Of a stretch of 64,000 nucleotides of DNA, positions 3,536 to 6,256 are shown piece by piece. A program made the position numbers and the translations under genes. How positions within the stretch are numbered: the stretch's first letter is position 1; each line of letters begins with the position of its first letter. Location: the NCBI GenBank assembly GCA_000165345.1, contig CM000432.1, positions 800,001 to 864,000 of the forward strand, given 5' to 3'. The notes under the pieces are model-generated. The model was not told the DNA's origin and made no database searches. It saw only the letters and a program-made list of their open reading frames with translations.

Positions 3536-6256
3536 ATGGAATACAAATTAAGTCCGGATAGTGAATCTGGGGTTAGGCCAGAATTAGAGAATTTAACAGT
3601 TAAGGAGATTAATCTAGAACGCCAAGGGGAGGAGGAGGAAGATGATGACGAGGAAGATGATGAGGAAGCATCCAAGCATATTAATGAGCAGAGGTCTGAG
3701 GGGCCAATGTGTCTAAGCGGACTTAAGTCTCAGGTAGCTCGTGACTTTGTCTCGGAAAGGCAAGATCAGATGAAAGAGAAAAATAATGGTGGTTCTAAGA
3801 GTAATAGTAAATCAACTAGAAATAAGCCTAGTAGAAATAAAGCTAATAATCATAGAAATGAAGATAGCTACCAGCGTCATATTGAAGAAGATAGAAAGTG
3901 CTGCAAGAAGAATGACTTAAATGACGATTGTTCATATTACAATAGGTCATCACTTGGTTCGGCGAATGATGACTTGGAGCTGCCTAAATCTGCCTGCAAC
4001 TCTAACAAAACCGTTAATCAGGCTAATTATCAATTCGAATTTCATCATCAAGATCTCCGCCACTACCATGTTTCAGAAGGCTTTGAGAGGGAAGACCAAA
4101 GGCATAAATTCTTTGAAAATGCAAAGAATCGGGGAGATGAGCCATCATCACTACTAAAGGGAAGTGCTGACAGCTCAGTACTGGTTGACCGCGGGTCTTT
4201 AAATAGCTCAAAAATCTCTCATGAAGGGTCAGGACGCAGTATCATTCAAGACAATAACTCAAATACGATCAAAGGAATTGCCCGAGTATCCGAGTCTGAT
4301 CGACTTGACCACCGCTTCTGCAGTGATGGAAGCGCTACATCCCACACTGGAAGTAATTCTAATGTTGATCCAATCGTTTTTTGTACTCCACATAATTTTG
4401 GAGCGGGTTACTTTACTGTTCCTAACGCTTATCCTGCCCCTAATGTCGAGATAAAGCTGTTTGTGGGTAGGGTTCCAAGGAATATTGAAGAAGATGATCT
4501 CCGTGATTTATTTAAGTTGTATGGTCGAGTTGTGAATGTGTCCGTGATCCGGGAAAAGAGTACTGGAATCCATAGAGGAGCAGCTTTGGTTACCATGGAA
4601 TCTGTTGCGCAAGCAGATTTTGCTCTTAGAGAGCTAAATTCTATTAAGGTATTGGACGAACTTAGAGGGCCTCTTAAGGTCCAATACTCTACGGGGGAGC
4701 CTGAAAGACTGGGTTTTGAGAGTGAATCTTGCATTCCAGGAGTTGATCAAGTCAAGCTCTTTGTTGGAGCTCTCCCTAGAAATATCATAGAAGACGAGAT
4801 TAGGGAGTTATTTTCTCCATATGGGCAAATCAATGAAATATTCATTATGAGGGAGCCTCATTCTGGAGTGGGTAAAGGTTGTGCTTTTGTTAAATATGCT
4901 TTTAAAGAACAAGGGCTTTTCGCTATCAAGTCTTTACATGGAGCTTTGACCCTTGCAGATGTCAACAGACCAATTGAAGTCCGTTTCGCATCCAAGAACC
5001 ACCAGTCATCTACTAGCAGCTCCTTAATAGCTCAAGGAGCGCATTTAACTTTTGGAACACCTGCAGCTCTTAACTTTAACGGGCACTTCAACTTTGGCCA
5101 TCATTCAATTCAAAAACTCCATTCCCCCAGAATTGTTGGAGCCAGTAATAACGTTAACAATATTTTGTGTAATGCTAGCACATTAACTTCTTCGACCTCG
5201 CCAATGTCTCAACAAGCCCCTGGCAGCTCAAAGTCTTCAGTTGGAATTGGGGGAACAGCTTACCAATTCCACAACCATCAATCAGGACAACATTTTATTG
5301 GATGCAATTCTAAAGGTTTATCGCAAAGTTCAAGCCATCATTCTTTAACCGAACAGCTGCAAATTGGTCCATTTACTGGGGTTAGTGCAACTGGAGCCAA
5401 TGCTGTACAAGCTGGTCATCATCCCCCATGTGGAAGAGCTATCACGCTATTTGATCACAATGGAATGGCTGTAGCCACAACCACTTCCACGGCTGCGATG
5501 TTCTCTCGTTCTCGTGCAGTTGGTCTTCCCATTCCAGCATCCACAAGTGCTACAGCTGCAGCTGCAATTACTGCTAATTTGATGCCAAGGTGTATTGGCA
5601 TGTGGAAGGAATACTTCACTTCTGATGGTAAGCCATATTACCATAATGAATTAACGCAGGTAACGCAATGGGAGGTTCCTCCAGAATTTTTAAGTTTCCG
5701 TCCAAACTTTTCAAGAGAAGTTGTTGGTCCACCTGGAGCAAATATCTTCATTTTCAACGTTCCGTATGAATGGGATAAGAAGAGTCTTGTTGGACTCTTT
5801 TGTCGTTTTGGAAATATCCTATCTGCTCATCTTATGGTTGATAAGACTAGTGGCCGAAATAAGGGAGTAGCCTTTGTCTCATATGATAATATCCACTCTG
5901 CAGCTGAGGCCGTTAACCATATGAATGGGTTCATCACGGAGCAAGGAAGAAAACTTAAAGTTTCCATCAAGCAAGGTCAAGAACACTTCGTCCAGCATTT
6001 ATTGAAGAATAATTTGCCTCAGGGAGGATGCAGCCAAACGGGCTATATGGAGAACTCTCAAAATAATATTCAGAGTGATTCGATTTCTATCGCCATTTCC
6101 CAGAATTCTAATGATAATGTTAATGGTAATAATGAAAGTAATACTGATGATAATAGTAATAATAATAATGATGTAAATGTTAATATTAATAACAATAATA
6201 GTAATAATAGTTGCAATAATAACAACCACAACTTCAGTTCTGGACCGTCCTCATAA
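3536..6256 (+). CDS. CELF/Bruno-like RNA-binding protein with three RRMs (RRM1 ~4454-4700, RRM2 ~4753-5000, RRM3 ~5738-5980). It has an acidic N-terminal tract, a WW domain in the linker (~5597-5686) and an Asn-rich C-terminal tail.
   Basis: 906-aa ORF. RNP motifs include [11 protein letters not shown]...[19 protein letters not shown]...KGCAFVKY and [11 protein letters not shown]...KGVAFVSY. The WW motif is [26 protein letters not shown]. An in-frame TGA lies 6 codons upstream of the ATG. Confidence 0.85.
   Translation: [906 protein letters not shown]
6060..6240 (+). repeat. AAT-rich trinucleotide tract encoding the Asn-rich C-terminal tail of the RRM protein
   Basis: [43 protein letters not shown]. 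Confidence 0.8.

What the first reader, a model, noticed from the sequence alone, without database searches (positions are those of the whole stretch)
5597..5686. WW domain embedded in a CELF/Bruno-like three-RRM protein
Between RRM2 and RRM3 lies the sequence [30 protein letters not shown]. It is a textbook WW domain: two Trp ~22 residues apart, a central YYHN, and a terminal Pro. CELF-family proteins normally have only a disordered divergent linker here. A proline-motif-binding module would couple this RNA-binding protein to PPxY/proline-rich partners such as splicing factors or the RNA polymerase II CTD.
Basis: partly seen in the sequence, partly recalled or inferred. Interest (0 to 1): 0.55.

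Follow-up and report, generated by a model that had tools for sequence, protein, structure and literature searches.

The report
Known WW domain in Cryptosporidium CELF protein
The flagged segment is a genuine, strongly conserved WW protein-interaction domain sitting just before the third RNA-binding domain of the Cryptosporidium parvum CELF1-like protein, but databases already annotate it, the architecture is published for Plasmodium, and it is the normal layout in alveolates and oomycetes.

Summary
Observation confirmed. The window is Cryptosporidium parvum Iowa II. One uninterrupted 906-aa ORF (3536-6256, +) encodes RRM1, RRM2, a 190-aa low-complexity linker, a WW domain (aa 690-715, nt 5603-5680) and RRM3. 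Pfam scores WW at 40.9 bits (cut-off 26.9). The closest solved relatives are the Prp40, PRPF40A/FBP11 and TCERG1 WW domains. AlphaFold models give the three-stranded sheet, and all top-50 PDB fold matches are WW domains. The intron objection fails: across four Cryptosporidium species synonymous sites are saturated (pS 0.58-0.97) while pN is 0.05-0.15, and the GT strings are not conserved. The WW is present at the same place in all 23 alveolate orthologues recovered. A WW plus CELF-type RRM unit also occurs in Theileria, ciliates, dinoflagellates and oomycetes, and plant FCA is RRM-RRM-WW. It is not novel: near-identical orthologues are named "RNA recognition motif/WW domain containing protein", and Reddy et al. 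2015 describe Plasmodium CELFs as RRMs flanking a WW domain. The likely function, inferred and untested, is binding PPLP or polyproline motifs of splicing or 3'-end factors. A PPxY preference is unlikely. Interest is low.

The parts
3536..6256 (+). Complete CDS (906 aa plus stop) of the C. parvum CELF1-like RNA-binding protein, UniProt A3FQM3_CRYPI / EAZ51266.1
   Evidence: Single ORF. It is 100% identical over its full length to P0001, 'RNA binding protein [Cryptosporidium parvum Iowa II]'.
3536..4450 (+). N-terminal S/E/N/D-rich region of about 305 aa with no recognised domain. It is much shorter in C. muris (546 aa in total).
   Evidence: No Pfam hit; composition; orthologue lengths.
4451..4699 (+). 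RRM1 (aa 306-388)
   Evidence: Pfam RRM_1, three stretches, 157 bits, best stretch aa 308-372; boundaries.
4751..4993 (+). RRM2 (aa 406-486)
   Evidence: Pfam RRM_1; boundaries. The RRM1-2 pair is 40% identical to plant FCA and 34% to fish CELF1.
4994..5572 (+). S/A/G/T/H-rich linker of about 190 aa, the equivalent of the CELF 'divergent domain'
   Evidence: No Pfam domain above threshold; composition.
5573..5599 (+). Conserved N-terminal extension of the WW (ANLMPRCIG; motif N-x-x-P-R-x-x-G-x-W), predicted to add a short beta strand
   Evidence: PR and G are in the consensus of alignments A1 and A2. Extra strand at model residues 6-8 and 13-14.
5603..5680 (+). WW domain core, W690 to P715 ([26 protein letters not shown])
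   Evidence: Pfam PF00397, aa 690-715, 40.9 bits. PDB sequence hits to Prp40, PRPF40A and TCERG1. Three strands in the AlphaFold models. All top-50 Foldseek PDB hits are WW domains. pN/pS is about 0.09-0.2.
5681..5737 (+). Short post-WW helix (PEFL) and a flexible tether of about 19 aa to RRM3
   Evidence: Helix at model residues 37-40, and pLDDT below 50 at residues 42-48. E718 is nearly invariant.
5738..5974 (+). RRM3 (aa 735-813), CELF type
   Evidence: Pfam RRM_1. The model superposes on human CELF2/ETR-3 RRM3 (4tlq, 4ljm) at rmsd 0.7-0.8 A with 42-43% identity. It is 41% identical to fish CELF1 RRM3.
5978..6253 (+). Asn/Ser-rich C-terminal tail (33% Asn)
   Evidence: Composition.

Best explanation
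Shown: the segment encodes a real, folded WW domain of the PRP40/FBP11/TCERG1 sequence type. It sits in the C. parvum orthologue of apicomplexan CELF1 and is tethered about 19 residues upstream of the CELF-type RRM3. The domain is under strong purifying selection. It is a conserved, ancestral part of this protein family in alveolates and is already annotated. Inferred: it works as a docking module. The exposed aromatic platform (Y693, Y701, H703, W712, equivalent to the ligand-contacting residues of the PRPF40A WW domains) binds a PPLP-like or polyproline motif in a partner protein. By analogy, the most plausible partners are early-spliceosome proteins (an SF1- or SF3A1-like protein, as for PRPF40A) or a 3'-end processing factor (as for the plant FCA WW and the PPLPP motifs of FY). 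This would recruit that machinery to the UG-rich RNAs bound by the three RRMs.
For: WW identity: Pfam 40.9 and 46.2 bits against a cut-off of 26.9; PDB phmmer E 7e-12 to 2e-10 for Prp40, PRPF40A and TCERG1; AlphaFold models with three strands, pLDDT 87-93 over the WW; all top-50 Foldseek PDB hits are WW domains, with PRPF40A (8pxw) and FBP11 WW1 (1zr7) at rmsd 0.7 A. Coding and selected: pS 0.58-0.97 against pN 0.05-0.15 in four Cryptosporidium species. Conserved: the WW motif is present in all 23 alveolate orthologues, 35-88 residues upstream of the RRM3 start. Core positions 1, 3, 4, 12, 15, 22, 23 and 26 are invariant in A1. Pfam order is RRM, RRM, WW, RRM in C. canis, C. muris and C. bovis. 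Ligand face: the PRPF40A contact residues are His149/Tyr157/Tyr159/Trp168 and Tyr190/Tyr198/Tyr200/Trp208, which are core positions 4, 12, 14 and 23, and they bind PPLP and PPPP (PMC11079029). Precedent for an RRM-RRM-WW protein: the FCA WW binds the PPLPP motifs of the 3'-end factor FY (PMC3346229). PfCELF1 is nuclear and cytoplasmic and binds UG-rich RNA (PMC5111744).
Against: No ligand was identified or tested here, and no C. parvum partner with a PPLP motif was examined. Core position 14 is His in C. parvum and gregarines, not the Tyr of PRP40-type WWs; it is Tyr in C. bovis and Plasmodium. The 26-residue core is only 42-54% identical to the PRP40/TCERG1 references, excluding the divergent TCERG1 WW3 at 27%, and 38-42% identical to FCA, so ligand class cannot be read off with certainty. 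The protein has no proline-rich motif of its own that could act as an internal ligand. A splicing role for PfCELF1 was proposed but not validated.
Confidence: 0.7

Rival explanations
1. The segment is an unspliced intron or non-coding stretch that happens to stay in frame, so the WW resemblance is an artefact of the gene model.
For: The DNA contains GGTAAG (5627-5632) and CAGGTAAC (5657-5664), which resemble splice donors.
Against: Both strings are ordinary codons (GGT AAG = Gly-Lys; CAG GTA ACG = Gln-Val-Thr). Their GT is lost in C. muris, C. bovis and C. canis while the amino acids are kept. Synonymous sites are saturated and non-synonymous sites are nearly unchanged. The WW scores well above the Pfam threshold. 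Transcriptome-derived orthologues contain it in frame.
Confidence: 0.01
2. It is a class I WW domain that binds PPxY motifs, as in YAP and NEDD4. This was one of the reader's suggestions.
For: NEDD4L, ITCH and YAP WW domains appear among the weaker sequence and fold matches. WW domains are known to be promiscuous (PMC11079029).
Against: The best sequence matches are all PRP40, PRPF40A, TCERG1 and WBP4 (E 7e-12 to 4e-7), whereas NEDD4L, ITCH and YAP score E 5e-6 to 6e-5. From my own knowledge of WW classes, not a tool result: class I domains use a His two residues after the conserved Asn, plus a Leu/Ile/Val at core position 14, to form the Tyr pocket. Here those positions are E705 and H703.
Confidence: 0.08
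3. [quoted passage not shown]
For: The closest WW relatives, Prp40 and TCERG1, belong to transcription-coupled splicing factors. PRPF40A pull-downs include Pol II-associated proteins (PMC11079029). Pin1 WW appears among the weak hits.
Against: Pin1 matches are weak (E 0.004-0.09). From my own knowledge: loop 1 (TSDGK) has the PRP40/FBP11 length and lacks the Arg-rich, one-residue-longer loop that Pin1 uses to bind phosphate. There is no direct evidence either way.
Confidence: 0.15
4. The WW is a vestigial or purely structural element, for example a spacer or stabiliser of RRM3, with no peptide ligand.
For: It always lies close to RRM3, 9-21 residues away in apicomplexans. The Hammondia orthologue has lost it, and the unidentified transcriptome protein P0025 has a degenerate copy, so it is dispensable in some lineages.
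Against: The solvent-exposed ligand-face residues (core positions 4, 12 and 23) are invariant across distant alveolates. That is not expected if only the fold mattered. The AlphaFold model shows a low-confidence flexible tether and no confident WW-RRM3 packing (pTM 0.61, linker pLDDT below 50).
Confidence: 0.06

Closest known systems
Plasmodium CELF1 ('CUGBP Elav-like family member 1', PfCELF1) and the other apicomplexan orthologues
   Same: Same architecture, RRM-RRM-WW-RRM. The WW core is 62% identical ([26 protein letters not shown]), the N-terminal PRxxG extension is the same, RRM1-2 is 51% identical and RRM3 54%. Reddy et al. [quoted passage not shown]
   Different: C. parvum has an N-terminal extension of about 300 aa, a longer linker between RRM2 and the WW, and an Asn-rich tail. 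Core position 14 is His rather than Tyr. No function is known for the WW in either organism.
Plant flowering-time protein FCA (RRM-RRM-WW)
   Same: Two CELF-like RRMs followed by a PRP40-type WW in the same order. C. parvum RRM1-2 is 40% identical to Acorus FCA, slightly more than to fish CELF1 at 34%. The FCA WW binds PPLPP motifs of the 3'-end factor FY (PMC3346229), which gives a worked example of how such a protein operates.
   Different: FCA has no RRM3. The C. parvum WW core is only 38-42% identical to FCA WWs, no closer than to PRP40/TCERG1. By contrast, oomycete WW-RRM proteins have an FCA-like WW at 67% identity.
Metazoan CELF/Bruno-like proteins (CELF1/CUG-BP1, CELF2/ETR-3)
   Same: Three RRMs arranged as two, a long linker, then one. 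RRM3 superposes on human CELF2 RRM3 at 0.7-0.8 A with 42-43% identity.
   Different: The vertebrate CELF1 hits have no WW in the linker: P0028-P0030 carry no PF00397.
WW domains of PRP40, PRPF40A (FBP11) and TCERG1 (CA150/FBP28)
   Same: These are the best sequence hits and fold hits. The W-to-P core has the same ungapped length of 26 residues, the same loop-1 length, aromatic residues at the ligand-contact positions, and a following P-x-E-[LF] helix.
   Different: Those proteins carry tandem WWs plus FF domains and no RRM. Here a single WW sits inside an RNA-binding protein. His replaces Tyr at core position 14.
Short SAR paralogues: RRM-WW-RRM (Theileria, Plasmodium 'clustered-asparagine-rich protein'-type, ciliates, dinoflagellates) and oomycete WW-RRM 'CUG-BP- and ETR-3-like factor'
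   Same: The same unit, a WW followed by a CELF-type RRM3.
   Different: They have one RRM or none before the WW. Their WW cores are 43-47% identical to the long apicomplexan form.

Membership tests
WW domain (Pfam PF00397) | Profile HMM score above the curated gathering threshold | tested here: met
   40.9 bits in the whole protein and 46.2 bits for the segment alone, against a cut-off of 26.9.
WW domain (Pfam PF00397) | Two signature Trp 20-22 residues apart and a conserved Pro three residues after the second Trp | tested here: met
   W690, W712 and P715. All three are invariant in 12 and in 30 aligned homologues.
WW domain (Pfam PF00397) | Three-stranded antiparallel beta sheet | tested here: met
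   AlphaFold strands at model residues 11-15, 21-25 and 30-32 and at 17-21, 27-31 and 36-38. All top-50 PDB Foldseek hits are WW domains, the best at rmsd 0.7 A. This is a prediction, not an experiment.
WW domain (Pfam PF00397) | Binds proline-containing peptide ligands | not testable with these tools
   Needs binding assays.
PRP40/FBP11/TCERG1-type (group II/III) WW | Closest sequence relatives are the PRP40, PRPF40A and TCERG1 WWs | tested here: met
   The top PDB sequence hits are 1o6w, 8pxw, 7abf and 2l5f, at E 7e-12 to 2e-10. Class I and class IV WWs score 5 to 10 orders of magnitude worse.
PRP40/FBP11/TCERG1-type (group II/III) WW | Aromatic residues at the four ligand-contact positions (core 4, 12, 14, 23; His/Tyr, Tyr, Tyr, Trp in PRPF40A) | tested here: inconclusive
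   C. parvum has Y693, Y701, H703 and W712. Three of the four match. Position 14 is His here and in gregarines, and Tyr in C. bovis and Plasmodium.
PRP40/FBP11/TCERG1-type (group II/III) WW | Binds PPLP, PPPP or PR-type motifs | not testable with these tools
   No binding data, and the C. parvum proteome could not be scanned for candidate ligands.
CELF/Bruno-like RNA-binding proteins | Three RRMs: two N-terminal, a long linker, and one C-terminal | tested here: met
   RRM_1 in three stretches; positions aa 306-388, 406-486 and 735-813.
CELF/Bruno-like RNA-binding proteins | RRM3 of the CELF subtype | tested here: met
   The best PDB fold matches are human CELF2/ETR-3 RRM3 (4tlq, 4ljm) and CUG-BP2 RRM3 (5m8i). 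It is 41% identical to fish CELF1 RRM3 and only 24-29% to any FCA RRM.
CELF/Bruno-like RNA-binding proteins | Linker ('divergent domain') without a folded domain, as in metazoan CELFs | tested here: not met
   A WW domain lies in the linker. This is the lineage-typical SAR variant.
CELF/Bruno-like RNA-binding proteins | Binds UG-rich RNA | not testable with these tools
   Reported for PfCELF1 in vitro (PMC5111744). Not tested for C. parvum.
Plant FCA | Two RRMs followed by a C-terminal WW, with no third RRM | tested here: not met
   The RRM-RRM-WW order is shared, but a CELF-type RRM3 follows the WW.
Class I (PPxY-binding) WW | Tyr-pocket residues: an aliphatic residue at core position 14 and His at core position 16 (own knowledge of YAP/NEDD4 WWs) | tested here: not met
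   These positions are H703 and E705. Class I WWs are only weak hits.

The most novel reading that the evidence does not exclude
The RRM-RRM-WW-RRM layout may be the ancestral form of a single CELF/FCA superfamily in plants and SAR, with FCA having lost RRM3 and metazoan CELFs lacking the WW. If so, the apicomplexan protein would work like FCA: its WW would recruit a PPLP-bearing 3'-end processing factor (an FY/WDR33/Pfs2 homologue) or an SF1-like factor to UG-rich RNAs, giving parasites an FCA-like route to alternative polyadenylation or splicing control. Three results hint at this. C. parvum RRM1-2 is slightly closer to FCA than to animal CELF1. Oomycete proteins pair an FCA-like WW (67% identity) with a CELF-type RRM3. 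The architecture is found across alveolates.
Probability: 0.25. Interest if true: 0.5.

Novelty: already known. Interest (0 to 1): 0.15.

Why it matters
It matters little as a discovery. The WW is already in the database annotation: Pfam hits are precomputed for this exact protein, and orthologues in the same 90%-identity cluster are named "RNA recognition motif/WW domain containing protein". The architecture has also been noted in print for Plasmodium CELFs. What remains open is the function of the WW. I found no report of a ligand for any apicomplexan CELF WW. Plant FCA shows that an RRM-RRM-WW protein can steer 3'-end choice through a WW-PPLPP contact. Finding the partner in Cryptosporidium or Plasmodium would therefore show how a conserved parasite RNA-binding protein connects to the splicing or polyadenylation machinery. 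That is a reasonable but incremental question.

Tried and rejected
(1) Intron hypothesis. I tested it by codon-level comparison with C. canis, C. muris and C. bovis and rejected it.

(2) Fold search with the two-domain WW-RRM3 model. It returned only RRM hits because the RRM dominates. I re-modelled the WW alone, and then every top hit was a WW domain.

(3) Is the C. parvum WW specifically FCA-like? No. Its core is 38-42% identical to FCA and 42-54% to most PRP40/TCERG1 references, so a 26-residue core cannot resolve its origin.

(4) Is the missing WW in the Hammondia orthologue a gene-model artefact? tblastn and a six-frame regex scan of the 13.5-kb locus found no WW. A 'PRCIG' hit inside an annotated intron is a chance 5-mer followed by unrelated sequence.

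(5) An internal proline-rich ligand, as in PRPF40A autoinhibition. There is no PPLP or PPPP motif in the 906-aa protein.

(6) Literature linking FCA, CELF and WW. The search gave only irrelevant hits. The primary PfCELF paper (PMID 25447287) was not read, because the one look-up attempt failed on a search-term error.

(7) Neighbouring genes were scanned for context. Nothing related to the WW was found.

(8) The second homologue search listed only proteins of 332 aa or fewer and did not list the proteins the profile was built from. I read this as a bias toward short proteins in that list, so it says little about how many long-form proteins exist.

(9) I did not identify the C. parvum FY/WDR33 or SF1 homologues. 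No reliable query sequence was available, and a eukaryote-wide search would bury the Cryptosporidium hit.
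Full report
**What is there.** The window is Cryptosporidium parvum Iowa II. The ORF at 3536-6256 (+) has 906 codons and no stops. It is 100% identical over its full length to P0001, 'RNA binding protein [Cryptosporidium parvum Iowa II]' (EAZ51266.1, UniProt A3FQM3_CRYPI). The quoted peptide is therefore real, but it sits one codon to the right, at 5600-5689.

Domain positions are as follows:
- RRM1: aa 306-388 (nt 4451-4699).
- RRM2: aa 406-486 (nt 4751-4993).
- An S/A/G/T/H-rich linker of about 190 aa.
- WW core: aa 690-715 (nt 5603-5680).
- RRM3: aa 735-813 (nt 5738-5974).
- An Asn-rich C-terminal tail.

The WW thus lies about 200 residues after RRM2 and only 19 residues before RRM3.

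**Is it a WW domain?** Yes.
- Pfam PF00397 scores 40.9 bits (E 2e-10) in the whole protein and 46.2 bits (E 4.7e-12) for the 50-residue segment alone. The curated cut-off is 26.9.
- phmmer against all PDB sequences puts the yeast Prp40 WW pair first (E 7e-12), followed by PRPF40A/FBP11, TCERG1/CA150 and WBP4. NEDD4L, ITCH, YAP and Pin1 WWs score many orders of magnitude weaker.
- An AlphaFold model of WW plus RRM3, built from 12 homologues, has mean pLDDT 87. It gives three strands over the WW (pLDDT 88-93), a short helix after the WW (PEFL), a low-confidence tether (model residues 42-48) and a canonical RRM.
- A WW-only model from 30 homologues gives the same three strands. All of its top 50 Foldseek PDB hits are WW domains. 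The best are the PRPF40A tandem WW (8pxw, rmsd 0.7 A over 32 columns) and FBP11 WW1 (1zr7, rmsd 0.7 A).
- The RRM3 half superposes on human CELF2/ETR-3 RRM3 (4tlq, 4ljm) at 0.7-0.8 A with 42-43% identity. This confirms the CELF character of the protein.

**Is it an unspliced intron?** No.
- The orthologues in C. canis, C. muris and C. bovis are also single uninterrupted ORFs, with Pfam order RRM, RRM, WW, RRM.
- Over the 41 codons around the WW, pairwise synonymous differences are saturated (pS 0.58-0.97), while non-synonymous differences are few (pN 0.05-0.15).
- The two splice-like strings are ordinary codons. GGT AAG (Gly-Lys) becomes GGA AAA in C. muris and GGA AGA in C. bovis. CAG GTA (Gln-Val) becomes CAA ATA in C. 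canis and AAG ATA in C. bovis. The GT is not conserved, but the protein is.
- Transcriptome-derived orthologues from gregarines and MMETSP organisms carry the WW in frame.

**How widespread is it?**
- All 23 alveolate orthologues recovered have a W-x21-W-x2-P motif 35-88 residues upstream of the GPPGAN start of RRM3. These come from eight Cryptosporidium clusters, gregarines, Plasmodium 'CUGBP Elav-like family member 1', and MMETSP and other transcriptome sequences.
- Core positions 1 (W), 3 (E), 4 (Y), 12 (Y), 15 (N), 22 (Q), 23 (W) and 26 (P) are invariant in the 12-sequence alignment.
- Apicomplexan sequences also share an N-terminal extension, N-x-x-P-R-x-x-G-x-W, which the models place as a short extra strand.
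- A profile of WW plus RRM3 finds 1605 proteins at E <= 1e-10. That count includes relatives without a WW.
- Named WW-bearing hits include complete short RRM-WW-RRM proteins in Theileria, Plasmodium, the ciliates Blepharisma and Stentor, and the dinoflagellate Effrenium. They also include WW-RRM proteins in oomycetes, annotated 'CUG-BP- and ETR-3-like factor'. Eimeria keeps the WW (P0046).
- That hit list held only proteins of 332 aa or fewer, so it is biased toward short forms and fragments.
- The vertebrate CELF1 hits lack a WW.

**Relation to plant FCA.** FCA (RRM-RRM-WW) was hit by the full-length query. C. parvum RRM1-2 is 40% identical (140 bits) to Acorus FCA, against 34% (114-118 bits) to fish CELF1. 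RRM3 resembles only CELF RRM3, at 41%. On the 26-residue WW core, oomycete WW-RRM proteins are 67% identical to FCA WWs and 50% to the PRP40/TCERG1 references. The long apicomplexan form is about equally distant from all of these, at 41-44%. A common origin of the FCA and SAR CELF WWs is therefore plausible but not shown for the C. parvum domain.

**How it probably works (inferred).** In PRPF40A, the peptide ligand contacts His149/Tyr157/Tyr159/Trp168 in WW1 and Tyr190/Tyr198/Tyr200/Trp208 in WW2. These are core positions 4, 12, 14 and 23. WW1 binds PPLP and WW2 binds PPPP of SF1 and SF3A1 (PMC11079029). C. parvum has Y693, Y701, H703 and W712 at those positions. Position 14 is Tyr in C. bovis and Plasmodium. 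The FCA WW binds the PPLPP motifs of FY, the Pfs2p homologue in the 3'-end machinery (PMC3346229). PfCELF1 is nuclear and cytoplasmic and binds UG-rich RNA in vitro; a splicing role was proposed but not validated (PMC5111744).

The most likely mechanism is therefore that the RRMs bind UG-rich RNA while the flexibly tethered WW docks a PPLP or polyproline motif of a splicing or 3'-end factor. A PPxY (class I) preference is unlikely. The Tyr-pocket positions are H703 and E705 (class definition from my own knowledge), and class I WWs are weak hits. Phospho-CTD binding cannot be excluded. No ligand was tested. The protein has no proline-rich motif of its own.

**Novelty.** None at the level of the observation.
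- Pfam WW is precomputed for this exact protein.
- Members of its 90%-identity cluster are named 'RNA recognition motif/WW domain containing protein' in C. tyzzeri (TRY51825.1) and C. hominis (PPS96295.1).
- Reddy et al. [quoted passage not shown]

What I did not find in the searchable literature is any functional study of this WW, or any explicit link to FCA.

**Verdict.** The feature is already known and is the normal layout for this lineage. Interest is low.

Noticed in passing
L004 (Hammondia hammondi KL544034.1, gene at 3001-10486); protein P0024: The closest Sarcocystidae orthologue (1127 aa; RRM1-2 45% and RRM3 49% identical) has no WW. No WW-like sequence exists in any frame of the 13.5-kb locus, although Eimeria (P0046) keeps the WW. 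This looks like a lineage-specific loss, unless a separate WW-bearing paralogue exists.
   Followed up: partly
P0025 (transcriptome GHVN01060301, organism not identified), just upstream of RRM3: This protein has a degenerate WW: SYREILSVNGKCQYLNFDSGEWRFDPPPEF. The first Trp is replaced by Tyr and the YY pair is lost. Pfam does not call it a WW.
   Followed up: no
P0145, P0138, P0146 and others (oomycetes) versus P0032-P0036 (plant FCA): Oomycete WW-RRM 'CUG-BP- and ETR-3-like factor' proteins have a WW core 67% identical to plant FCA WWs, for example [26 protein letters not shown] against [26 protein letters not shown]. It is joined to a CELF-type RRM3. This hints that FCA and the SAR CELF-WW proteins share an origin.
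   Followed up: partly
window 5573-5599 (aa 680-688): A conserved N-terminal extension of the WW, N-x-x-P-R-x-x-G-x-W, occurs in Cryptosporidium, gregarines, Plasmodium, Eimeria and many unnamed metagenomic homologues. It is predicted to form a short extra strand. Its role is unknown.
   Followed up: partly
window 5441-5464 (aa 636-643, ITLFDHNG) in the RRM2-WW linker: This short motif is conserved in C. parvum, C. canis and C. muris inside an otherwise low-complexity linker. I did not see it in the C. bovis, gregarine or Plasmodium sequences.
   Followed up: no
P0020 (Plasmodium cynomolgi) versus P0017 (P. ovale), between the WW and RRM3: P. cynomolgi has an insertion of about 55 aa (…GNLEKEHIFSECNSPLGECAPLGN…FFFPSSRSSFA) that P. 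ovale lacks. It is probably an unspliced intron in that gene model.
   Followed up: no
window 7429-10299 (-): The downstream neighbour is a Vps53_N protein (956 aa) on the opposite strand. The same gene order is seen in C. muris (L002).
   Followed up: partly
window 53086-56775 (+): A 1229-aa ORF carries at least seven Kazal-type serine protease inhibitor domains (PF07648, 268 bits).
   Followed up: no
window 11153-17539 (+), 21305-30094 (-), 45840-50576 (-) and ten other ORFs of 200 aa or more: Thirteen of the 16 other long ORFs in the window, including proteins of 2128, 2929 and 1578 aa, have no Pfam hit at E <= 1e-5.
   Followed up: no
window 4001-6000: G+C is 0.43 over the conserved RRM and WW part of the gene, against about 0.23-0.39 elsewhere in the window.
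   Followed up: no
P0050 (Colinus virginianus, flagged UNVERIFIED_CONTAM) and P0080 (Condylostylus longicornis): Bird and fly assemblies contain alveolate-type relatives of this WW-RRM family. P0080 carries the WW; P0050 has RRM hits only. Both probably reflect parasite or protist contamination of the host assemblies.
   Followed up: no
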